The translations under genes and the position numbers were made by a program. From the NCBI GenBank assembly GCA_963764725.1, contig CAVXTM010000018.1, positions 544,001 to 608,000 on the forward strand: DNA of 64,000 bases, in the 5' to 3' direction. This stretch comes from an uncultured Gammaproteobacteria bacterium (GTDB lineage Bacteria; Pseudomonadota; Gammaproteobacteria; JACCXJ01). The first letter of the stretch is position 1. The number at the start of each line of letters is the position of its first letter. This document shows positions 554-52,389 of the stretch, piece by piece. The notes under the pieces were generated by a model. It was not told the origin of the DNA, ran no database searches, and saw only the letters and a list, made by a program, of their open reading frames with translations.

Positions 554-785
554 GACTTTTGCGGGACGTCGTTAGACACTGTTAGACACCGTACGACATT
601 CTGTGTGCAACGGGCTCGGGCAACTGTATCGTTAAATCAATGACTTATAGGTAGAGCAGGTGACTGAAAATCCCTGTGTCGGCGGTTCAATTCCGTCCCT
701 GGCCACCAATATAATCAATGGCTTGCAGCATTTCTACCCCGCTCACTTGTCTAATATTTTCGCGTTTTTTCTAATTTGTTAGACA
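554..785 (+). repeat. attP-like junction, copy 1 (arm sites, IHF box, 3' tRNA-Phe fragment, IHF box, arm sites)
   Basis: GTTAGACACT/GTTAGACACC tandem 571-590; AATCAATGACTTA 635-647 and AATCAATGGCTTG 713-725 match IHF WATCAANNNNTTR; TGTCTAA 748-754 and GTTAGACA 778-785; 554-711 repeated at 6638-6795. Confidence 0.8.
650..708 (+). pseudogene. 5'-truncated tRNA-Phe(GAA) fragment (att core)
   Basis: GGTAGAGCAGGTGACTGAAAATCCCTGTGTCGGCGGTTCAATTCCGTCCCTGGCCACCA; no 5' acceptor strand, 5' side of anticodon stem mispairs. Confidence 0.9.
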
Positions 786-914: not shown

Positions 915-1149
915 CGCATCTTTTGCGCATAGTCAACGAGTGGACCTCGTACTACAACACAGTACGTCCGCACCGGTCGCTCGGTCCTGGGATCCCAAGT
1001 CCTCCGGACACCTTACCCGTCGCTGTTACATCGTACCGACTTCCCGGACAAGCGGGACGTTTTCGCACGCCCTTTGCTTGGCGGCCTGCACCACGATTAT
1101 CGGTTGGTGCCAGTCGCGGCATGAGTTCGGAAGATAATTGCGGACGACA
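915..1149 (+). mobile_element. C-terminal fragment and right end of an IS481/IS3-like integrase-core element
   Basis: LLRIVNEWTSYYNTVRPHRSLG; homologous to 5480-5719; ends TTGCGGACGACA. Confidence 0.75.
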
Positions 1150-2166: not shown

Positions 2167-2380
2167 GTACGCCCGACATGGGCATGAACTTATGGGGTGA
2201 AAGCCCCCTGTAAGAGTATCGGTAATGTCTATTATAGGACAAATGCAACTACTAGCCGACGGCAAGGGCAATCCCGCGAGGGGTGGTCTGAAGGAAGCCC
2301 GAGCGCAAAGGTGCGAACCGACGGACCGAAATCGCATAGAAGTCTCCGGGCGAGTCAGCACAAGATGACGAAGCCCACCG
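2167..2380 (+). mobile_element. Group IIC (attC-type) intron, 5' domain I fragment, no RT ORF
   Basis: Starts GTACGCCCGACATGGGC...GGGTGAAAGCCCC; contains GCAACTACTAGCCGACGGCAAGGG...GTGGTCTGAAGGAAGCCCGAGCGCAAAGGTGCGAACCGACGGAC, as recalled for IIC-attC introns. Confidence 0.75.
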
Positions 2381-2384
2381 AGGT

Positions 2385-3085
2385 ACAGGTGTCTTGGTAA
2401 TGCCTCCGAGGAGCTGCTGGAGCGCGGAGTCATCAACGATGAGGGGGTCGGTCAGTAGGTAGTGCATCTCCACAAATTGCCGAAGGAACGGGTCGAAAGG
2501 CCCAGGAGACGCAGCATCATCTTGCCGGCAACCCCGTAACGTGGGCGTGCCCCATAGGCCAGCCGTGCGAGTTCAAGCTGAGTCGTGATGCCGTCGCCCC
2601 CAAGGGTTCCACGCCCGTCCGAAGGCCGAAGGAGTGTCCAGGAGCTTTGTCACCACCGGGTCAACGTCGGGTACGAACATGAACTCGTGCGGTCGGTCGA
2701 TCGGACCGATGAGTTCTGCTTTACGATTCTGCTTTGCCGCGACGAAGAGGTCACTGAGCAAACTTCGTTCGACACCCGGCCCGTAGAAATCCGGCAGGCG
2801 CAAGACAGTGGTTCTAATCCTGGCGGTGGTGTGCGCTTCCAGGACACGGTTTTCCTGTTCCTTGCGCTTCCGTCCCTTGAAGGTATGAGGCTCCTTTGGA
2901 TGATCCTCTGTCACACGCGCACTCTGCGGCCGGCCGAAAACGTACAGCGTACCGATAAGGAGCAGGCGGTCAACCTTTTCTGAGATCGCAGCATCGATGA
3001 CGCGGCGCATCAGGAGATGAAAATCCGTGTATCGAACGCCAACCATATAGACGACAGCTGGGACGCCCCTGAGAGCAGCCCTGAT
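2385..3085 (-). pseudogene. NAD-dependent epimerase/dehydratase, frameshifted and truncated
   Basis: GTLYVFG, LRLPDFYGPG, HEFMFVPD; C-terminal MHYLLTDPLIVDDSAL in another frame. Confidence 0.75.
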
Positions 3086-3213: not shown

Positions 3214-4596
3214 GGGTCTTCGTGAAAACGTGTGGGTAATTTTGTTTCCATGATCACGCTGCAAGGCTTGCTCCGCAAGGGATTACGCCCGGTTGAAGGG
3301 ACGGTAATTTCTGGCATGCTGTGGCGATGGCTACCCAACGCAAACGCTCTCGTCGTCTCACCGACACATACGCCTTTGACGGCTTTCGTCCACAAGCAAC
3401 GGTACGCGGGGTTTTCGGGGAACCGAAGGTCCGCATCGTCACGCTCGTACGACGCTCAAAAAAACACGCTGTGGAGTCTGCGGTACGTTGCATCGCGGTT
3501 GGTACGACAAGAAGCTGCGGCAGGTTCGAGATCTCTCCTGCGGGGATACGCACGTGCGGCTGGAGTTGGAGGTCCGGCGTGTGGATTGCCGGCAGTGCGG
3601 CAAGGTGAAGCGCGAGCGTCTGGACTTTCTGGCCGACAACCCTTTCTACACCAAGCGCTTTGCTTTCTACGTCGGGCGGCGCTGCCGCACGAGCACCATC
3701 AAGGCGGTGGCCGATGAGTTGGATCTCGACTGGCAGACGGTCAAGGAGTTGGACAAGCAATACATGGGTGCGCAGCTTGCACGGGCTGGCCGGCCAGGAC
3801 CTGCGGTTATCGGCATCGATGAGATCGCCATCCGCAAAGGTCACACCTATCGCATCGTGGTCAGCGATCTCCTCCGTGGCCGACCGATCTGGTTTGGCGG
3901 GACTGACCGCTCTCAGGCCAGCATGGACGAATTCTTCAAATGGCTGGGGCCGCGTAAAACCAAGGGGGTGCGCTTGGCTGTGATGGATATGTGGAAGCCG
4001 TTTCGCAACAGCACCAGAGAACAAGCGCCCCAGGCGGCTATCCTGTTCGACAAATTTCACGTGACGCGTCATCTGGGCGAAGCGCTCGATAAGGTCCGCA
4101 AGGGGGAGTACGCCCGACTCAGCGGCGAGAAACGTACCTACATCAAGGGCCAAAAATATACCCTGCTCTCCCGGCGGGAGAATCTGACCCTCGATGGTCG
4201 AGCTGCCTTGAAGAGGCTCCTCGCCGCCAACAAGCGGCTGAACACTGCTTATCTGCTCAAGGAATCTTTCGGCCAATTGTGGAGCTACGAGCGTGAAGCG
4301 TGGGCGCGACGTTTCTTCGAGAACTGGCGTAACGCGCTTAAATGGCAGCGTCTGAAACCGTACGAGAAATTCGCCGAGATGATCGAGCGCCATTGGGATG
4401 GGATCGCTGCTTATTGCAAACCAGAGAACAAGATCTCTCTCGGATTCGTCGAAGGACTCAACAACAAGATCCGCGTCATCCAGCGCCGCGCCTACGGACT
4501 CCGCGACGAGGATTACCTGCGCCTCAAGGTGCTTACCTGCATGCTGCCGGTACTGTGAAAACACCATTTTCTACCCACTCACTTTCACGATGAGCC
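3214..4596 (+). mobile_element. ISL3-family insertion sequence, complete
   Basis: Imperfect IRs GGGTCTTCGTGAAA / TTTCACGATGAGCC; perfect 8-bp TSD TAAATTGT (3206-3213, 4597-4604). Confidence 0.92.
3327..4558 (+). CDS. ISL3 transposase (short orfA plus -1 frame orfB joined at an A7 tract near 3459-3465)
   Basis: Zn finger, GIDE, MDMW, FDKFHV, EGLNNKIRVIQRRAYG motifs. Confidence 0.9.
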
Positions 4597-6637: not shown

Positions 6638-6867
6638 GACTTTTGCGTGACGTCGTTAGACACTGTTAGACACCGTACGACATTCTGTGTGCAACGGGCG
6701 CGGGATACTGTATTGTTAAATCAATAACTTATAGGTCGAGCAGGTGACTGAAAATCCCTGTGTCGGCGGTTCAATTCCGTCCCTGGCCACCAATAGAAAC
6801 AATAGCATGTGTGCCATTATTCACTTACATGTGGTCCGCAATTTTCTAAACGAACTGCCTTAGACAC
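6638..6867 (+). repeat. attP-like junction, copy 2, with 3' tRNA-Phe fragment (ends 6792)
   Basis: 6638-6795 aligns without gaps to 554-711 with 7 substitutions; right arm diverged but keeps TCACTT, TTTTCTAA and TTAGACA. Confidence 0.8.
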
Positions 6868-11247: not shown

Positions 11248-13401
11248 ATGAAAATCAAGGGGCGTGATACCGAACGGGGCGACTATTCTCTTCCTTTTCT
11301 GGCTCCCATTCCGCTAGCCCAAGCCTGGGATTACCTGATCGATGCCGGCCAGCGCACGATCCTGTTCCTCGATATCTTGCGGGAGCGCGGCAATCAATAC
11401 CTCCAACAGGCAGCGGAGACTGTACCTCACGCGCTCGACTACGAGTTCGAGCTCATTATGGATGGCCGCTCGCTCAAGCGGCCCGTCAACTATGGTCTCA
11501 TACAGATCAAGCCGCCAGCGGGCAAGAAGGTGGATCCGAAAAACCGTCCGGTGGTCGTCATCGACCCGCGCGCTGGCCACGGTCCTGGCATCGGCGGGTT
11601 CAAGGCGCAGAGCGAGATCGGCATGGCCCTCGAGGCCGGTTACCCGACCTACTTCATCGGCTTCGCGCCCGAGCCTATCCCCGGCCAGACCATCGAGGAT
11701 ATCGCCGAGGCCGAGGCGCAGTTCCTTGAGAAGGTCATCGAGCTCCATCCCGGGGCCGATGGCAAACCCTTCGTCATCGGCAACTGTCAGGCCGGCTGGG
11801 CAGTGATGCTCGTGGCGGCGGAGCGTCCCGAGCTGTTCGGGCCGATGCTCCTGGCCGGCTCACCGCTCTCCTACTGGGCGGGCGTGCGCGGCAAGAACGC
11901 GATGCGCTACTCAGGCGGCCTGCTTGGGGGGAGCTGGTTGACTGCGCTCGCCAGCGACCTTGGCAACGGGAGGTTCGACGGCTCTCACCTCGTTGCCAAC
12001 TTCGAAAACCTTAACCCCGCCAACACGCTCTGGACCAAGCAATACGATGTCTGGGCCAAGGTCGACACCGAGGCGCCGCGCTACCTCGGCTTCGAGAAGT
12101 GGTGGAATGCGCACCCCCTCCTCAATGGCGAGGAGATGCAGTATATCGTCGATAACCTCTTTGTCGGGAACAAGCTCGCCACCGCCGAGATCGTGACCTC
12201 GGACGGGAAGCGCCTCGATCCGCGCAGAATTAAGTCCCCCATCATCTGCTTCTGTTCCTGGGGCGACGATATCACCCCACCGCCGCAGGCACTCGACTGG
12301 ATCCTCGATCTCTATGAAGACGTCAACGATATCCGCGCGCACGGTCAGACCATCGTCTACTGCGTCCACGAATCGGCTGGGCATCTCGGCATTTTTGTTT
12401 CGGGCAAGGTGGCGGTCAAGGAGTATCAGGAATTCGCCCACAACATCGATATGATCGACTGCCTGCCGCCCGGTCTCTACGAGGCGGTGATCCGGCCGAA
12501 GACCAAGCAGGATGCGAACGTCGATCTCGCGACGGGCGACTTTATCGTCCGCTTCGAGATGCGCACGCTCGACGACATCCGCGCACTCGGGTACAACAGT
12601 GTCATGGATGAGCGCAAGTTCGCCACGGTGGCCCGGCTCTCCGAGATCAATTTGGGGCTCTACCGCACCTTTCTCCAGCCCTGGGTCAAGATGATGGTCA
12701 ACGAGCAGACCGCGGAGTGGCTGCACAAGACTCACCCTCTGCGTCTGCAATACACACTGTTTGCTGACACCATTCCCTTCATACGGCCGGTGGCACAGCT
12801 GGCCGAACAGGTTCACGCCCAGCGCCGCCCGGCCTCGCCCGACAACCCGCTGCTGCTCCTCCAGGAGCAAGCCTCAAAGACGATCATCTACCTGCTCGAT
12901 GCCTACCGCGACCTGCGCGACCAGAGTTTGGAGGCGATCTTCCATGCCATTTATGGAGCACCGCAGGTACAGGCGCTGCTTGGCCTCAAGGCTACCGATG
13001 AGCCACCGCGCCGCCGGCCAGGTCTCGAGCCCGAGGAGCGCGCTTTCATCAACCAAAAGATTGCGGAACTTAAGGCCCGGATCTCGGAAGGAGGACTGCG
13101 CGAGGCGGGGATCCGCTCCATCGTCTATATCGGTCTCGCAGACGCCTTCGCCGATGAGCGCAACTTCGCGGTCATCCGGCGCCTGCGCGCGGAGCCGGAG
13201 TACAGCCTGCCGCTTGCTGAGTTCAAGCAGAAGCTGCGCGAGCAGTTCTTCATGCTGCTGCTCGACGAGGAGAACGCGGTTCGTGCAATCCCGGCCATGC
13301 TGCCTGAGGACCGTGACCAGCGGGAGCAGGCCTACGCGATAGTGCGGGAGATCATGCTCGCCGGCAGGCGAGCCGAGCGAAGAGAGGCGCCGCCGCCTTG
13401 A
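11248..13401 (+). CDS. DUF3141 protein (PHA-synthase-like alpha/beta hydrolase); probable frameshift near C-terminus
   Basis: DPRAGHGPGIGGFK, GNCQAGW nucleophile elbow, GDDITPPPQAL, GHLGIF. Confidence 0.9.
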   Translation: MKIKGRDTERGDYSLPFLAPIPLAQAWDYLIDAGQRTILFLDILRERGNQYLQQAAETVPHALDYEFELIMDGRSLKRPVNYGLIQIKPPAGKKVDPKNRPVVVIDPRAGHGPGIGGFKAQSEIGMALEAGYPTYFIGFAPEPIPGQTIEDIAEAEAQFLEKVIELHPGADGKPFVIGNCQAGWAVMLVAAERPELFGPMLLAGSPLSYWAGVRGKNAMRYSGGLLGGSWLTALASDLGNGRFDGSHLVANFENLNPANTLWTKQYDVWAKVDTEAPRYLGFEKWWNAHPLLNGEEMQYIVDNLFVGNKLATAEIVTSDGKRLDPRRIKSPIICFCSWGDDITPPPQALDWILDLYEDVNDIRAHGQTIVYCVHESAGHLGIFVSGKVAVKEYQEFAHNIDMIDCLPPGLYEAVIRPKTKQDANVDLATGDFIVRFEMRTLDDIRALGYNSVMDERKFATVARLSEINLGLYRTFLQPWVKMMVNEQTAEWLHKTHPLRLQYTLFADTIPFIRPVAQLAEQVHAQRRPASPDNPLLLLQEQASKTIIYLLDAYRDLRDQSLEAIFHAIYGAPQVQALLGLKATDEPPRRRPGLEPEERAFINQKIAELKARISEGGLREAGIRSIVYIGLADAFADERNFAVIRRLRAEPEYSLPLAEFKQKLREQFFMLLLDEENAVRAIPAMLPEDRDQREQAYAIVREIMLAGRRAERREAPPP

Positions 13402-45771: not shown

Positions 45772-46200
45772 GTGTCAAGACTTTGGGTAGTGGCCGCAGA
45801 CAGCCGTCGGGCCAGGATTTTTGAAACGGATACTCCCATGGGGAGCTTGCAGGAGATCGAGGATCTCCTTCATCCGGCCGCGCGCACCCATGCGCGAGAT
45901 CTGACCTCCGACCGGCCGGGTCGCAGCTTCGACAGCGCCGGCCAAGGCCGCCATGCGATGGAGCCCGAGACAGATGCGAAGCGCCATGAGGCCGAGGTCT
46001 TTGCTAGGCAGGTTGCCGAACGGATCGAGCGTGCACGCATGGAGGGTGAGTTCGATAAGCTTGTCCTCATTGCAGCTCCTGAGTTCCTCGGGCTGCTGCG
46101 CAAGAGCTTGAGCCCGACGACGAGCGGGCTCGTTGCTAAGGCGGTGGATAAAAGCGTCGCTGGTCTTAACGCAACGGCGATCCGAGAGTACCTTTTGTGA
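45772..46200 (+). CDS. Host attachment protein (baeRF12-like)
   Basis: WVVAADSRRARIF, DRPGR, LIAAPEFLGLLR. Confidence 0.9.
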   Translation: MSRLWVVAADSRRARIFETDTPMGSLQEIEDLLHPAARTHARDLTSDRPGRSFDSAGQGRHAMEPETDAKRHEAEVFARQVAERIERARMEGEFDKLVLIAAPEFLGLLRKSLSPTTSGLVAKAVDKSVAGLNATAIREYLL

Positions 46201-47734: not shown

Positions 47735-48493
47735 TTAAAAATCCTTAGCAGTCTTGGATGGATCTAGAATCATCATGCGCAGACGTATATATGCTTCAAG
47801 GAACTTGTATTGATCATACGACGGCGTATCACTAAACTGCAATAGTATAGCTCCATCTGGACCAGTGATACGCTCAACTAGCGGCCTCCTATCAGGAAAT
47901 GTTTTTCTATCTTCTTGATCTTTAAAAGATCCGCTTTCAGGTTCCACGAATAACTCACCCTCTTCTTCCGCTTCTTCTAGGGCTCCTATTTTAGCAGAAT
48001 TGTCAAGGTTTGCAAATTTAAGGGTGCTCTTATAATCGTCTAAAAATCCCTTAACCGCGCCTTCATTAAATCCACGTTCCAAGACCATATACGCGCACAC
48101 CTCTTTGTCTGGCGGCATATTTGGCCCCCACTTTTCCCACAGTTCTTTGTATATCTTTGGGTTTAGTGCCGAGTCTTTGATGGCCTTTTTCCATTCAGGC
48201 GAGTCTTCATGATCAACAAGGATTCGCATGGCGCGCTGACTCAATCGAATTTTCCGGTCGTCTCCGCTACCTATGGCATCGACAAGGCCGAAGCTGGAAA
48301 GCGCGGCCACCATTTTCATACCGTTGCTGCTGGAAGACTTATAACCCCAATGTTCCAAAACAAACTTTATTGTAACTGGGTGCTGCCCCCCGAATTCCTT
48401 AAACTGTTTTGCTCGTCCGATCGCTTCTTTGAGATCGGCCGCCGGGTATGAAGGACTCCGTATGCGAGCCTTCTTGTGATTATCTGATCCCAT
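47735..48493 (-). CDS. Hypothetical protein, probable winged-helix DNA-binding (DUF5343-like)
   Basis: Low-GC intact 252-aa ORF; RSPSYP..DLKEAI, ALSSFGLV; own TTGACC-17-TAGTAT promoter. Confidence 0.75.
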   Translation of the reverse strand: MGSDNHKKARIRSPSYPAADLKEAIGRAKQFKEFGGQHPVTIKFVLEHWGYKSSSSNGMKMVAALSSFGLVDAIGSGDDRKIRLSQRAMRILVDHEDSPEWKKAIKDSALNPKIYKELWEKWGPNMPPDKEVCAYMVLERGFNEGAVKGFLDDYKSTLKFANLDNSAKIGALEEAEEEGELFVEPESGSFKDQEDRKTFPDRRPLVERITGPDGAILLQFSDTPSYDQYKFLEAYIRLRMMILDPSKTAKDF

Positions 48494-48500
48494 ATATCAC

Positions 48501-48614
48501 CGCTAGCAATGATTAGTGTCATTTATACTAGCCTAGATGGCGTCTACGGTCAAGCGAATAGAGACGCTAGCAGTGAAGCTATAATGTGACAGACTAGCAC
48601 ACGTACGATAAAAT
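48501..48614. promoter_or_regulatory. Divergent sigma70 promoters with repeated CGCTAGCARTGA sites
   Basis: Minus TTGACC-17-TAGTAT (48553-48525); plus GTGACA-17-TAAAAT (48586-48614); repeats at 48501 and 48565. Confidence 0.6.
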
Positions 48615-48763
48615 GGGCATACTAGAGGAAGACGAGGTGATCTATGACCAGAAGAGTAGTGGCCCCTAGTGCTCTAGCCTACCGAGGCTAGGGGCCAAAA
48701 TGACAAGGCCCATCAAGTGTTTGCAGCGGTTCGACCTTCACTTGATGAGCCGTGGTAGACGAT

Positions 48764-48834
48764 GGGGCGGGCTTGGTGCGGTCCGGGCCTTTACATTCCG
48801 AAGACCAAGGGTTCAATTCCCTTCCGCTCCACCA
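48764..48834 (+). ncRNA. tRNA-like RNA: Ala-type acceptor stem, T-arm, CCA, no D-stem
   Basis: GGGGCGG/CCGCTCC-A-CCA with G3:U70; AAGGG-TTCAATT-CCCTT; only 36 nt between acceptor and T stem. Confidence 0.7.
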
Positions 48835-49124
48835 CTTTACGTTTGCAGTATAGCAAAATAGGAAAGATTAATCTATGAATAACTTAAGGACAGAAAAGCA
48901 GGCGGCGCGAGCCCTTTAAGAAGCTCCAAGAGCAGCAAGCTCTTGCAGTAGCGTTGGATCCTCAGTGCTAGCTTAGACATGACCTACCCTCTGCGTCGAT
49001 GGTGCTCGTGAACCGCCGACATTTTTGCGGGATCCTAAACGCCTTGACCCGACCGAGATCAGCGCAACTTCCGAAACACCCGCAATCGCTCACGGCCACG
49101 ACCCGTTTGGCAACCGGGATCATT

Positions 49125-49345
49125 TTATTTACCCGGCCGAATCAGCCCGCCGAGGCCCGCCTGTTCGAGCTCGCTGTTCAGCATCTGGCGGATATCCCGG
49201 GCGTTGTCCATCTGCAGCGCCTCCCGGAGAACCGCTTTCGCCTGCCTGCGGGTAATACTGCGGATCGCCCATTTAATCCGTGGGATACTCCCTGCGCTCA
49301 TACTGAACGTATCAATGCCCATCCCGAGCAGCAAGATCATGATAA
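49125..49345 (-). pseudogene. ptsP: PTS enzyme I-Ntr C-terminal fragment
   Basis: LLGMGIDTFSMS..SIPRIKWAIR...GLGGLIRPGK. Confidence 0.75.
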
Positions 49346-50308: not shown

Positions 50309-51466
50309 TCAGCGCACCACGAGCACCGGGCAGTGCGCGTGGGTCAGGACCTGCTTAGACACCGAGCCTACCAACAGGCGTTCGAAGAAACTCCTGCCGC
50401 GGTGACCCACCACGATGAGATCCACACCATTTTGCTCGGCCCGGTAAACGATCTGGTTGGCCGGGTGACCGGCGACGATCTCAAAGCGCGGGATTAGTCC
50501 CTGGGAGGCGGCTTGCGTTTTGAGGGCGTCGAAAAGCTCTTGGTAATGTGCCTCGGCGTTTTCCAGGATAGCCTCGGTCTCGACGTCTTCGGGAGGTTCG
50601 GGCGGACGCGCCACGGCGAGCACGCACCACGCGCGGCGATGACCGCCGCGACCAGAAACGAATATTGCGCCTGGTCGATGACCTGGTGACCCAAGCCGTA
50701 GAGCGCGGAAATGGTGCCGAACGTCAACCCCGCGGACATCACGAGCGTGGTAGACGTTGCCTCCTGAGCGGGGGCGCGGTAGAGATTTGCCCCGGGGCGT
50801 CTCGATCCTCTGCGCGTGCCCGTAGGACAGTGCGCTGTGGCGCGAGGCATTGGCGTGGATCTTCGTCCCATCCAGCGCAATCGTCCCGAGCTTCAGCAGC
50901 TTCATTTGCTTGGCGATGCGCAGGACCTCGACGAACAGCCGCTCGATTTCGGGCAGGAACCGCTTGCGGAATGCGCACAGCGTGTCGTGATCGGGATGGG
51001 TATTGGCGGCGATGTAGCGAAACGCGACCGAGTCATGGGAGGCCTGCTCGATGCGCCGGCTACCGAAGGTGCCGGTGGCATAGCCGTAGATCAGCAGCGC
51101 CAACAACACCCCCGGGTGATACGCCGCCGAGCCTGCGCCGCGATACTGGCGGATCAGCGCCGACAGGTCCAACTGCTCGACAATGTCCACCACAAAGCGC
51201 GCCAGATGGTCCTTGGGCAACCATTCATCCATCGATGGCGGCAGAAGATACTGGGTATCGCGATCACTTTGACGGAAGTGGCTCATCGATTTTCGCTCAT
51301 CGAGACGTTTGTCGATCTGATCGATCCGAATATCAAAAGTTCAACGTTAAGTCCGACAGGCTGCTAGGAGATCGGCGCCGTATCGCTTTGCCAAGTCCAG
51401 GGCGAAGCGGTAGGCCTTGTCCGCTGGCGCCGAACCGTCGTAGGCGGCGAGGATTTTGTTGATCAT
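50309..51466 (-). pseudogene. Universal stress protein split by an insertion (N-term 51368-51466, C-term 50309-50630)
   Basis: MINKILAAYDGS...YGADL and VLAVARPPEPPEDVETEA...GSVSKQV...PVLVVR. Confidence 0.85.
50790..51367 (-). mobile_element. IS1182-family element, left end and truncated transposase (ATG 51286)
   Basis: LLPPSMDEWLP, YHP, PDHDT, LDGTKIHANAS; left end CTAGCAGCCTGTCGGACTT. Confidence 0.85.
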
Positions 51467-51716: not shown

Positions 51717-52012
51717 CACTGCCTTCCTACGGGTAAGCGTGCGGACCAGTGGAACCGATAGACAGAAAGAAACGTATTTTCATCGTCACCTTCAAGAGGT
51801 CGCTTGGCGCCCAGCTGGGCCCTGCGGCCGAAAAAAGAATCGCAATCACGTTTTCTAATACGGCCGCGGTCCGGACATGACGAAACGAAGGCCTCCTTTG
51901 AATCTCTACCAACGGTAATCCATCGGGCCCGGTAAGCAGGGAGTGGGCTAGGCGCTAGCTCGAATGTGTGAGGAGGCTTTTCGTCTGCCCACACCTTCCC
52001 TGCTTCCGGGAA

Positions 52013-52074
52013 CATGTAGGCATCATCAGCCGTAACGGCGGTTATTTTTCAGGAGGCATGCCATCTCCTGTAAT
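52013..52074 (-). ncRNA. Fluoride (crcB) riboswitch
   Basis: GGAGATGGCATGCCTCC...AACCGCC-GTTAC-GGCTGATGATGCCTAC; TATACT -10 upstream. Confidence 0.92.
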
Positions 52075-52389
52075 GCTTTCGCACGGAAAGTATAGGAGCA
52101 CCCAAGAAAGCGCGCAATGAAAAATCCCGAAAGCCTACGCCGGCCGGGTGTTCATCGCGCCCCGTCCATGGTCTAAATCTCCAATCCGCTCGATCCGTTG
52201 CTGGTCTGAGGCAACGAAGCCTTGGCCAGCAGAAAACGCCGGCGCGCGGTCCGGCGTTTGGTACGATATGAGGGATTCCAGCAGTACGTAGGATGAAATT
52301 CGACCCTCACGTCTCATCGGTTCTTGGATTGCAATCGAGATGTTGGCGAGGCGTAAGCGGCGCGCCACATCCAAAACCGTCACCACCGC

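What the first reader, a model, noticed from the sequence alone, without database searches (positions are those of the whole stretch)
48764..48834. Minimal tRNA-like RNA: alanine identity, CCA end, no D-stem, non-alanine anticodon
Seen: 7-bp acceptor stem GGGGCGG/CCGCTCC with G3:U70 and A73, encoded CCA, and a perfect T-arm AAGGG-TTCAATT-CCCTT, total 71 nt. The D region is a short GG-containing loop (GCTTGGTGC). The central hairpin CGGG/TCCG (plus a C-T mismatch) closes CTTTACA, which reads UUA (ochre) in the standard register or UAC (Val, one change from Ala UGC) if shifted by one. GGTC/GACC can extend this helix into a fold resembling the tmRNA tRNA-like domain. Known: G3:U70 suffices for AlaRS charging. 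Inference: intact pairing of both top-half stems argues for selection rather than a simple att remnant. It could be an alanyl donor, a missense or nonsense suppressor, a nuclease decoy, or an RNase P processing signal carried by a mobile element.
Basis: partly seen in the sequence, partly recalled or inferred. Interest (0 to 1): 0.75.

Follow-up and report, generated by a model that had tools for sequence, protein, structure and literature searches.

The report
Phage-type alanine tRNA-like mini-RNA gene
This is a real, strongly conserved 71-base gene for an RNA that keeps only the alanine-accepting top half of a tRNA or of the ribosome-rescue RNA tmRNA; relatives sit on phage DNA, and it is a shorter variant of a kind already known from one mycobacteriophage.

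Summary
The element is there exactly as described (48764-48834, + strand). Standard detectors miss it: ARAGORN finds nothing, the Rfam tRNA model does not hit it, and the tmRNA model gives 32.2 bits against a cut-off of 47.

It is not an att remnant. It differs from the host tRNA-Ala genes and from the genus ssrA 3' end.

It is under selection. A metagenome homologue is identical at 67 of 67 core positions, while the non-coding flanks differ at 75 of 346. Four viral-contig homologues, one of them beside terminase genes, change both sides of 9 of 18 tested base pairs. G3:U70 is invariant.

The encoded CCA is present in only 1 of 6 copies, and the 'anticodon' triplet varies, so the ochre/Val suppressor idea loses support.

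The closest known thing is the 'TLD-only' tmRNA of mycobacteriophage DS6A. This 71-72-nt subgroup, however, lacks the UCGAC/GGAC joint that DS6A, normal tmRNAs and the 76-83-nt phage minis share.

In the window the element follows a conserved structured leader. It lies between an orphan 252-aa gene and a truncated IS1-family transposase gene, in decayed mobile DNA.

Its function is inferred: a processed, alanine-chargeable decoy or competitor RNA.

This scan has reported TLD-only mini-tmRNAs before, on other DNA, mostly phage. Verdict: a new variant of a known kind, of moderate interest.

The parts
48764..48834 (+). tRNA-like / tmRNA-TLD-like RNA gene, 71 nt. It comprises acceptor stem 48764-48770 with 48824-48830 (G3:U70), D-loop analogue 48771-48779, central helix 48780-48806, T-arm 48807-48823, and discriminator A plus CCA at 48831-48834.
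   Evidence: Sequence and fold. RF00023 gives 32.2 bits end to end. The core is 67 of 67 identical in L027. Covariation is seen with viral homologues L073, L074, L111 and L085.
48634..48763 (+). Conserved structured leader upstream of the element. It comprises SD-like GAGGTG (48634-48639), a mini-ORF (48644-48691, 15 codons, length not conserved), hairpin 1 (about 48660-48697), hairpin 2 (48707-48751) and the motif GTGGTAGACGAT (48752-48763).
   Evidence: The same layout occurs in L027, in L029 (G367, without the tRNA-like element) and in viral contig L073. RNAalifold predicts 22 pairs, 8 with compensatory changes. No Rfam family matches it at E <= 10.
48586..48614 (+). Sigma-70-like promoter candidate (GTGACA-17-TAAAAT) that would drive the leader plus tRNA-like transcript.
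   Evidence: Consensus scan only: 2 sites found against 0.8 expected from shuffles. This is a consensus match, not evidence of function.
47735..48493 (-). Divergent orphan 252-aa gene. It is under purifying selection but is not a constant partner of the RNA.
   Evidence: No Pfam, PHROG, NCBIfam or PADLOC match. Six homologues were found. dN/dS against L027 is 0.22. The AlphaFold2 model is poor, pLDDT 50. The gene neighbouring the element in viral L073 is unrelated.
48875..48906 (+). First about 10 codons of an IS1-family transposase gene (MNNLRTEKQAA...), cut off at 48906.
   Evidence: L027 continues the frame, with a frameshift, into a stretch 91% identical to IS1-family transposases, two of which carry PF03400. 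A cave-metagenome contig continues past 48906 in the same way (record 6). G000 holds no other copy.
48905..49341 (.). Repeat fragment that truncates the module. It is a 98.9% copy of C1:47092-46656.
   Evidence: blastn of the window against its own genome. A high-depth contig starts at 48912 (record 7).

Best explanation
The element is a functional gene for a small tRNA-like RNA. It keeps the acceptor stem with the alanine determinant G3:U70, the T-arm, and a GG-containing D-loop analogue. The D-stem and anticodon arm are replaced by one variable helix. It belongs to a 71-72-nt subgroup, found on viral (phage) contigs, of the 'tRNA-like-domain-only' mini-tmRNA kind known from mycobacteriophage DS6A. 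Here it survives in a decayed patch of mobile DNA in an uncultured methanotroph-type gammaproteobacterium.

Shown: purifying selection, base-pair covariation, relatives on viral contigs, and that it is not derived from the host ssrA or tRNA-Ala genes.

Inferred mechanism:
1. It is transcribed behind a structured leader.
2. RNase P cuts it free at G1.
3. Its 3' end is trimmed, and CCA is added where it is not encoded.
4. AlaRS charges it through G3:U70.
5. It then acts in trans as a competitor or decoy for factors that handle tRNA-Ala and tmRNA (AlaRS, EF-Tu, possibly SmpB, or a tRNA-targeting nuclease). Interference with trans-translation is the role published for a DS6A-like molecule.

I put the identity claim at about 0.8 and the decoy/competitor mechanism at about 0.35.
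For: - Structure and detection.
- Not a host fragment. Its T-arm and acceptor differ from the three host tRNA-Ala genes and from the genus tmRNA 3' end. It is single-copy in G000. A covariance model built from it finds only ordinary tRNAs in the 14 other genomes of the order.
- Selection. The core has 0 of 67 differences, against 75 of 346 in non-coding flanks and a dS of 0.27 in the neighbouring gene. Cave-metagenome variants keep it while their flanks diverge.
- Covariation with four viral-contig homologues scoring 51-63 bits. Across 18 pairs, 9 change on both sides and G3:U70 holds in 6 of 6. None of 500 shuffles reaches this.
- Phage link. L073 carries large and small terminase genes 2-4 kb from its copy.
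- Same kind of Rfam hit as DS6A. The DS6A TLD-only element (JN698994 28478-28560) also matches RF00023 end to end below the cut-off, at 43.2 bits.
- Literature, read as passages. [quoted passage not shown] PMC11915505 says the same and adds ~65-bp plastid forms.
- The primary sequence is far better conserved than in the leader hairpins (0 of 67 against 24 of 143 differences). This fits an RNA with several trans-acting partners.
Against: - No expression data exist. No RNA run was listed. The promoter is a consensus match only.
- The subgroup lacks the UCGAC...GGAC joint that normal tmRNAs, DS6A and about 38 distinct 76-83-nt phage minis share. SmpB binding is therefore doubtful.
- CCA is encoded in only 1 of 6 copies, and the discriminator is G in L027.
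- One low-depth cave contig has 4 adjacent changes that weaken the central helix (record 4).
- The host assembly shows no smpB or ssrA to compete with. A whole housekeeping block is missing with them, so this is probably an assembly gap.
- The copy lies in decayed DNA beside a truncated IS, so this particular copy may no longer be in use.
- Folding energy is not exceptional.
- Ancestry is ambiguous. The acceptor and T-arm are as close to some gammaproteobacterial tRNA-Ala(CGC) genes (2 of 26 mismatches) as to tmRNAs (3 of 26).
Confidence: 0.45

Rival explanations
1. It is a cis-acting processing signal. The tRNA-like fold sits inside a longer transcript (leader, then element, then downstream gene). 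Its role would be to attract RNase P and RNase Z so that the leader RNA and the downstream mRNA are cut apart. This would be tRNA-type punctuation, as with mascRNA on MALAT1. The released mini-RNA would have no role of its own.
For: - The element lies between a promoter-like site plus conserved leader and a downstream start codon 41 nt after the CCA, with no terminator called between them.
- The leader-plus-element layout recurs in L027 and viral L073.
- The Rfam mascRNA-menRNA model gives the second-best match, 25.8 bits.
- The variable 3' tails and the variable central helix fit a role that needs only the top half.
Against: - Three of the 4 viral copies lack this leader, and one follows a terminator-like hairpin as a stand-alone gene.
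- The leader occurs without the element in L029.
- Every loop base is identical between the window and L027, whereas the structured leader differs at 24 of 143 positions. That exceeds what a shape-only signal needs.
- G3:U70 is invariant in 6 of 6 copies, and RNase P does not require it.
Confidence: 0.25
2. It is a non-functional relic: a decayed tRNA-Ala or internally deleted ssrA copy carried along in junk mobile DNA. Its conservation would be an accident of recent common descent.
For: - The surrounding region is a mosaic of repeat fragments with lower G+C.
- The IS gene next to it is truncated here and frameshifted in L027.
- This genome holds many pseudogenes according to earlier notes.
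- Plain tRNA and ssrA fragments are common in these genomes.
Against: - The core has 0 of 67 differences beside 21.7% divergence in non-coding flanks (p < 1e-6).
- Compensatory changes occur in all four helices across viral homologues.
- Both acceptor strands are present, unlike the 3'-only fragments of ssrA and tRNA-Phe in these genomes.
Confidence: 0.07
3. It is a DNA-level site: an attachment or target site for an integrase or for the neighbouring IS1-family element. In that case recombination, not RNA function, would keep it constant.
For: - An IS1-family gene starts 41 nt downstream.
- One cave contig shares the element's 3' part plus 8 nt and then diverges at 48842, which may be an IS-free version (record 5).
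- In G012 (unpublished genome) another aberrant tRNA-like sequence lies between a 252-family gene and an IS1 remnant.
- An earlier scan note reports a mini-tmRNA gene used as a landing site.
Against: - The conserved block matches the RNA's helix boundaries exactly, from G1 to C72.
- Compensatory base changes preserve pairing rather than sequence.
- Distant IS1-family loci have no tRNA-like element: 0 of 5 searched.
- The 4 viral copies have other neighbours.
Confidence: 0.1
4. It is a decoding tRNA without a D-arm that inserts alanine at UAA (anticodon UUA), or at other codons in its relatives.
For: - All 5 distinct sequences have a 7-nt loop of the form C-U-N-N-N-[C/A]-A, which is the tRNA pattern of C32, U33 and A38 around a variable triplet.
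- The alanine identity set is intact.
Against: - There is no D-stem and no variable loop, and the loop-closing stem is mismatched or irregular in most members.
- Position 37 is a pyrimidine in 3 of 5 sequences.
- The Rfam tRNA model and ARAGORN both reject it.
- The triplet differs in every member, with no sign of matching codon usage.
Confidence: 0.04

Closest known systems
'TLD-only' (CDS-less) tmRNA of Mycobacterium phage DS6A (JN698994 28478-28560; listed in Hudson, Lau and Williams 2014, PMC4131195; mentioned in Nawrocki, Petrov and Williams 2025, PMC11915505)
   Same: - Both are small RNA genes on phage or mobile DNA.
- Both have a complete 7-bp acceptor stem with G3:U70 and discriminator A, a canonical T-arm, and a D-loop analogue with UGGUG and no D-stem.
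- In both, one closed helix takes the place of the whole mRNA-like domain.
- Both give an end-to-end RF00023 match below the gathering score: 43.2 bits for DS6A against 32.2 here.
- DS6A also has no encoded CCA; its tail is ACTA.
   Different: - This element is 71 nt against 83 nt for DS6A.
- It lacks the UCGAC...GGCA/GGAC joint at the base of helix 2a and the small GC hairpin inside it. DS6A and the 76-83-nt phage minis share both features.
- Sequence similarity is only generic: my model scores DS6A at 28.3 bits, below the host tRNA-Ala at 36.1 bits.
- It lies in a gammaproteobacterial chromosome, behind a structured leader.
Standard bacterial tmRNA (ssrA, Rfam RF00023), tRNA-like domain
   Same: - The acceptor stem begins GGGGC and carries G3:U70.
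- A73 and CCA are present in this copy.
- The T-loop is TTCAATT, as in some gammaproteobacterial tmRNAs.
- The 5' region can be aligned as YUGGU, a few nt, G(A/U)C, then (C/G)NGGG.
   Different: - It has no tag reading frame and no pseudoknots: 31 nt stand in place of 328 model positions.
- It scores below the gathering score.
- The conserved UUCGAC/GGAC joint is absent.
- It is not next to smpB, whereas the genus ssrA lies about 100 nt after smpB.
Reduced organellar tmRNAs: jakobid mitochondrial mt-tmRNA (RF02544; PMC3590771, abstract seen in a search listing) and the ~65-bp plastid forms of Mallomonadaceae (PMC11915505)
   Same: The natural tmRNA is reduced to a tRNA-like domain with no message.
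   Different: These are organellar, vertically inherited descendants of ssrA that work with SmpB. RF02544 gave no match here, but that search rang in no control genome either, so it is uninformative.
Gammaproteobacterial tRNA-Ala (CGC and UGC isoacceptors)
   Same: - The acceptor stem GGGGCGG/CCGCTCC is identical to that of tRNA-Ala(CGC) in genomes G126 and G386, and the 3' 26 nt differ at 2 positions.
- The loop contains UUUACA, one change from the UUUGCA of the host tRNA-Ala(UGC).
   Different: There is no D-stem, no 5-bp anticodon stem and no variable loop. The element is not reported by RF00005 at E <= 0.001, whereas the 40 tRNA matches it lists score 48-78 bits.
att-site tRNA or ssrA 3' fragments left by integrating islands
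   Same: They share a T-arm, a 3' acceptor strand and CCA next to mobile DNA.
   Different: True fragments in these genomes are 3'-only copies of the resident gene. Examples are the genus ssrA pieces in G005 and G012 (both unpublished genomes) and the tRNA-Phe pieces at window 613-708 and 6697-6792. The element instead has its own 5' strand, matches no resident gene, and covaries.

Membership tests
tmRNA (Rfam RF00023) | Covariance-model score at or above the gathering score of 47 bits | tested here: not met
   32.2 bits, model positions 1-374 matched end to end with the middle skipped.
tmRNA (Rfam RF00023) | tRNA-like domain: 7-bp acceptor with G3:U70, discriminator A, T-arm, D-loop analogue without a D-stem | tested here: met
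   G3:U70 holds in 6 of 6 family members and discriminator A in 5 of 6.
tmRNA (Rfam RF00023) | mRNA-like domain with a tag reading frame and pseudoknots | tested here: not met
   Only 31 nt lie between the 5' part and the T-arm. ARAGORN calls no tmRNA.
tmRNA (Rfam RF00023) | Conserved UUCGAC ... GGAC joint at the base of helix 2a, as in the Rfam consensus. That SmpB grips this joint is recalled knowledge and comes from no call. | tested here: not met
   The window has GCGGUC ... AGACC forming plain Watson-Crick pairs. The joint is present in genus and other gammaproteobacterial tmRNAs, in DS6A, and in the 76-83-nt phage minis.
tmRNA (Rfam RF00023) | SmpB partner encoded in the same genome | tested here: inconclusive
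   PF01668 was not found in G000. It was found in 27 of the 30 relatives searched, that is 27 of 31 genomes counting G000; some of those genomes are unpublished. The whole fur-bamE-rnfH-ratA-smpB-ssrA block of a genus relative has no counterpart in G000, so an assembly gap is likely.
TLD-only mini-tmRNA (DS6A type) | A 60-90-nt gene with both acceptor strands, alanine identity, a T-arm and no message, carried by phage or mobile DNA | tested here: met
TLD-only mini-tmRNA (DS6A type) | Inhibits trans-translation or binds SmpB (reported for a similar molecule, per PMC4131195) | not testable with these tools
   This needs a bench assay. The missing joint lowers the expectation.
Canonical tRNA (Rfam RF00005 / ARAGORN) | Cloverleaf with D-arm, 5-bp anticodon stem, 7-nt loop and variable region | tested here: not met
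   ARAGORN found 0 genes in the window. RF00005 does not report the element at E <= 0.001, while the 40 tRNA matches it lists score 48-78 bits. In L027 the tRNA model reaches 22.4 bits with a shifted alignment.
att-site duplicate of the host tRNA-Ala or ssrA | 3' part identical to a resident tRNA or tmRNA gene, with a second copy bounding an island | tested here: not met
   It differs from the host tRNA-Ala genes and the genus ssrA. No second copy exists in G000. The nearest 3' ends in 400 class genomes have 2-3 mismatches in 26.
mt-tmRNA (Rfam RF02544) | Match to the covariance model | tested here: inconclusive
   There was no match, but the same search rang in none of the 14 control genomes.

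The most novel reading that the evidence does not exclude
The 71-72-nt subgroup may not be a crippled tmRNA at all. It could be a separate class of phage- and mobile-element-borne, D-armless, alanine-accepting RNAs. They lack the joint conserved in tmRNAs (recalled to be the SmpB grip) but keep a tRNA-style loop, C-U-NNN-[C/A]-A, whose middle triplet differs in every member (UUA here).

If that loop is read as an anticodon, these would be alanine-inserting nonsense or missense decoders, used by phages to recode or to sabotage host translation. In three members the RNA is fused to a conserved leader with a ribosome-binding site and a mini-ORF. That could couple release of the RNA to translation.
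Probability: 0.06. Interest if true: 0.85.

Novelty: new variant of a known kind. Interest (0 to 1): 0.45.

Why it matters
Message-less tmRNA heads are in print for one mycobacteriophage and a few organelles.

This work places a shorter, differently built version in a gammaproteobacterial chromosome and on several viral contigs. Real covariation supports its fold.

In the same viral collection there are about 38 distinct 76-83-nt DS6A-like minis. tRNA and tmRNA finders miss at least the copies tested here, so they go unannotated.

If these RNAs interfere with ribosome rescue, with alanine charging, or with tRNA-directed defence nucleases, they would be a widespread and overlooked phage tool.

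The subgroup without the conserved helix-2a joint asks a sharp and testable question: what does an alanine-accepting tRNA top half do without that joint, which is recalled to be where SmpB binds?

The conserved leader motif is a further uncharacterised structured RNA.

Tried and rejected
- **Replacement for host tmRNA.** I considered this because G000 shows no ssrA, no permuted ssrA and no smpB. I rejected it as unsupported. The whole neighbouring block (fur, bamE, rnfH, ratA) of a genus relative is also missing, which points to an unassembled piece. The element also lies in mobile junk.
- **G005 and G012 'minis'** (unpublished genomes). These looked like further examples but are plain 3' fragments of the genus ssrA.
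- **Exact 28-mer of the 3' end.** No match in viral contigs or genome contigs.
- **blastn of 48600-48906 against plasmids and phages.** No match.
- **The 252-aa protein as a handle:**
  - One metagenome locus; none in genome contigs or viral contigs.
  - Two of 400 class genomes; two further weak loci in the order.
  - One weak tblastn hit in a Tistrella plasmid.
  - The structure model was too poor to search (pLDDT 50).
  - The ESM Atlas gave only a DUF5343 lead.
- **Is the tRNA-like element part of the IS1-family element?** Five distant IS1-family loci have none, and G000 has no other copy of that IS. The question is unresolved for close relatives.
- **Expression.** No RNA holder was listed, and only DNA contigs could be laid. 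Parts without cover say nothing.
- **5' 17-base pattern in viral contigs.** It gave 10 stretches, and none contains the element, so they look like chance matches.
- **Wide pattern in viral contigs.** Of 78 stretches, 24 lie inside ordinary phage tRNA genes with a GTC anticodon loop, and a few others do not close an acceptor stem. I left these out of the family description.
- **mt-tmRNA model.** Uninformative.
- **Papers.** Mao et al. 2009 is not held in the library. I cite it only through the passages of PMC4131195 and PMC11915505. My three paper searches found no description of this 71-72-nt subgroup or of the leader. That shows only that those searches did not find it.

Full report
**What is there.** Window 48764-48834 (+) reads as a 71-nt tRNA-like sequence.
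- It has a 7-bp acceptor stem, GGGGCGG with CCGCTCC, that includes G3:U70.
- A 9-nt D region with GG follows, without a D-stem.
- One central helix of 4+4 pairs carries an AA bulge and a 9-nt loop.
- The T-arm, AAGGG-TTCAATT-CCCTT, is perfect.
- The 3' end is ACCA.
The minimum-energy fold gives this layout, though its energy is not exceptional: z = -1.2, and 28 of 200 shuffles fold as well.

**How detectors see it.**
- ARAGORN finds no tRNA or tmRNA in the window.
- Rfam at gathering thresholds finds nothing at this place.
- With E-value thresholds the tmRNA model matches end to end at 32.2 bits (cut-off 47). Thirty-one nt stand in place of 328 model positions.
- In the whole genome this is the only match of 30 bits or more that is not a tRNA-Ala gene.
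- The tRNA model lists 40 tRNA matches at 48-78 bits, but not this element.

**Not a host fragment.**
- The genome is 4.21 Mb in 19 contigs, 96.9% complete. Earlier notes of this scan, which I did not check, call it an uncultured USC-gamma or cave-type methanotroph relative with many pseudogenes and MITEs.
- Its three tRNA-Ala genes and the tmRNA of six genus relatives have other acceptor and T-stem sequences.
- Two apparent 'mini' hits in relatives G005 and G012 are simply 3' pieces of the genus ssrA. These claims rest on unpublished genomes.
- The element is single-copy in G000.
- It is not found in the 14 other genomes of the order, by BLAST or by a covariance model built from it.
- In 400 genomes of the class, the nearest 3' ends are tRNA-Ala(CGC) genes (2 of 26 mismatches) and tmRNAs (3 of 26).
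- True att-type fragments in this genome look different. A series of tRNA-Phe 3' pieces runs from C18:478947 to 550809, including window 613-708 and 6697-6792.

**The missing host tmRNA.**
- G000 shows no ssrA, no permuted ssrA and no smpB.
- Among the 30 relatives, 27 have smpB and 26 have a full tmRNA (31 genomes were searched, counting G000). The two genes usually lie next to each other. Several of these genomes are unpublished.
- The whole block around smpB in a genus relative (PAP2, AurF-like, Fur, BamE, RnfH, RatA, SmpB, GDPD) finds no counterpart in G000 by tblastn at E <= 0.01. RnfH is also absent by profile, and BamE and Fur give only weak or partial profile matches elsewhere in G000.
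- I read this as an unassembled piece, not as a biological loss. I do not read the element as a substitute for tmRNA.

**Selection.**
- A JGI metagenome contig (L027) shares window 47741-48906 at 88% identity.
- Differences by segment:

| Segment | Differences |
|---|---|
| 252-aa gene | 69 of 753 |
| Promoter region | 36 of 127 |
| Leader | 24 of 143 |
| Downstream | 13 of 72 |
| Element core (48764-48830) | 0 of 67 |

- The Fisher test of the core against the non-coding flanks gives p = 8.6e-7. The longest identical run of the alignment, 71 nt, ends at the last acceptor base.
- The neighbouring gene has dS 0.27 and dN/dS 0.22.
- The discriminator and tail do differ: ACCA here, GCCT in L027.
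- Contigs of a cave metagenome run add three observations. One is a 96% variant with no change in the element. A second is a divergent variant whose flanks no longer align, with 4 adjacent changes on the 3' strand of the central helix and the tail ACTTTTTT. A third continues the downstream gene past 48906.

**Viral relatives and covariation.**
- Patterns taken from the element found four IMG/VR contigs with clear homologues:

| Contig | Position | Score (bits) |
|---|---|---|
| L074 | 1024-1095 | 62.5 |
| L111 | 3669-3739 | 55.3 |
| L073 | 12713-12783 | 53.6 |
| L085 | 924-994 (-) | 51.5 |

- L073 carries large and small terminase genes 2-4 kb away.
- I tested 18 pairs on the six sequences: acceptor, mini D-hairpin, base of the central helix, and T-stem. 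Of the cells, 95.4% pair, and 9 pairs change on both sides. None of 500 shuffles reaches either value, and slid controls give 45-59% paired.
- G3:U70 is invariant.
- The six sequences are few and related, so this is good support rather than proof.
- CCA is encoded only in the window copy, and the discriminator is A in 5 of 6.
- The central loop has the form C-U-NNN-[C/A]-A in all 5 distinct sequences, with a different triplet in each. The stems that close it are irregular.

**The wider family.**
- A looser pattern matched 78 viral stretches, 48 of them distinct.
- Twenty-four stretches lie inside ordinary phage tRNA genes, and a few others do not close an acceptor stem.
- About 38 distinct sequences of 76-83 nt are message-less tmRNA heads with the UCGAC...GGAC joint and a small GC hairpin, like phage DS6A.
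- I located the DS6A element at JN698994 28478-28560. It gives the same kind of sub-threshold, end-to-end tmRNA match, at 43.2 bits.
- Passages of PMC4131195 list DS6A as 'TLD only' and say that a similar molecule strongly inhibits tmRNA, perhaps by titrating SmpB. PMC11915505 repeats this and adds ~65-bp plastid forms.
- The window element belongs to a shorter subgroup: 4 viral members plus the window and L027. This subgroup lacks that joint.
- This scan has reported TLD-only mini-tmRNAs before on other DNA, mostly phage. Those notes are leads. I repeated the DS6A comparison myself.

**Surroundings.**
- Upstream, on the same strand, lie a promoter-like site and a conserved leader.
- The leader holds an SD-like GAGGTG, an ATG opening a mini-ORF of variable length (15, 19, 4 and 4 codons in the four sequences), two hairpins, and a GTGGTAG-type motif.
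- The leader recurs in L027, in viral L073, and in genome G367 (L029). In L029 it ends where the element would begin.
- RNAalifold predicts 22 pairs in it, 8 with compensatory changes. No Rfam family matches.
- The other three viral copies have other upstream sequence. One follows a terminator-like hairpin.
- The divergent 252-aa gene has no family assignment and is not a constant partner.
- Downstream, 41 nt after the CCA, start the first codons of an IS1-family transposase gene. A repeat fragment cuts it at 48906.
- In G012 (unpublished genome) a distant 252-family gene, another aberrant tRNA-like sequence (tRNA-Sec model, 24 bits) and an IS1 remnant lie in the same order. I cannot tell whether this is chance.

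**Reading.**
- The identity is well supported. This is a selected tRNA-like RNA gene of a phage-borne kind, with alanine identity, related in build to TLD-only mini-tmRNAs.
- The mechanism is inferred: release by RNase P and 3' trimming, CCA addition where needed, charging by AlaRS, and action as a competitor or decoy. The missing joint makes SmpB titration less certain for this subgroup.
- The main rival is a cis-acting processing signal. That reading fits the leader-element-gene layout. It does not fit the stand-alone viral copies, the invariant G3:U70, or the complete conservation of loop bases.
- A neutral relic, a DNA-only site and a decoding suppressor tRNA are each unlikely, for the reasons given under the rivals.

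Noticed in passing
window 48634-48763 (+); also L027 948-1082 (-), L029 1201-1326 (-), L073 12582-12712 (+): A conserved structured leader RNA with no Rfam match. It has an SD-like site, an ATG mini-ORF of variable length, two hairpins with compensatory changes (8 of 22 predicted pairs), and a GTGGTAG-type 3' motif. It occurs with the tRNA-like element (window, L027, viral L073) and without it (G367).
   Followed up: partly
window 613-708 and 6697-6792 (+); G000 C18:478947-550809: Two direct repeats, 96% alike, each hold a tRNA-Phe 3' portion. Further such fragments lie at C18:483957, 502720 and 542058 behind the tRNA-Phe gene at 478928. This looks like a roughly 72-kb series of islands integrated one after another at tRNA-Phe. 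The group II intron domain at 2270-2421 lies inside it.
   Followed up: partly
G000 whole assembly: No ssrA, smpB or rnfH, and no close fur, bamE or ratA counterparts, although genus relatives carry them as one block. In relatives the smpB-ssrA pair often sits at contig ends. This is probably an assembly gap, but a real loss was not excluded.
   Followed up: partly
window 45772-46200 (+): A 142-aa ORF matches Host_attach (PF10116, E = 7e-47) and bacterial archaeo-eukaryotic release factor family 12 (PF18856, E = 3e-35). This release-factor-like protein lies 2.5 kb from the tRNA-like element. No link between the two was shown.
   Followed up: no
L042 1118-1212 (-) (G012:C20, unpublished genome): A 95-nt aberrant tRNA-like sequence has a 9-bp acceptor stem, a T-arm and CCA. 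It scores only 24.4 bits on the tRNA-Sec model and ARAGORN does not call it. It lies between a distant homologue of the 252-aa gene and a decayed IS1-family transposase gene, the same gene order as in the window.
   Followed up: partly
IMG/VR loci L075-L150: About 38 distinct 76-83-nt message-less tmRNA heads on viral contigs carry the UCGAC...GGAC joint and a shared small GC hairpin, as in phage DS6A. Their 3' tails are mostly not CCA. This is a sizeable family.
   Followed up: partly
window 52010-52077 (-) and 2270-2421 (+): A fluoride riboswitch (55.2 bits) and a group II intron D1-D4 domain (67.1 bits) both score above Rfam gathering scores.
   Followed up: no
window 50309-51286 (-): One 325-aa reading frame joins a DUF772 transposase domain to a universal stress protein domain. 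Part of it (50797-51368) is a 98.8% copy of C10:263606-263035. This is probably an IS fragment fused to a Usp gene.
   Followed up: no
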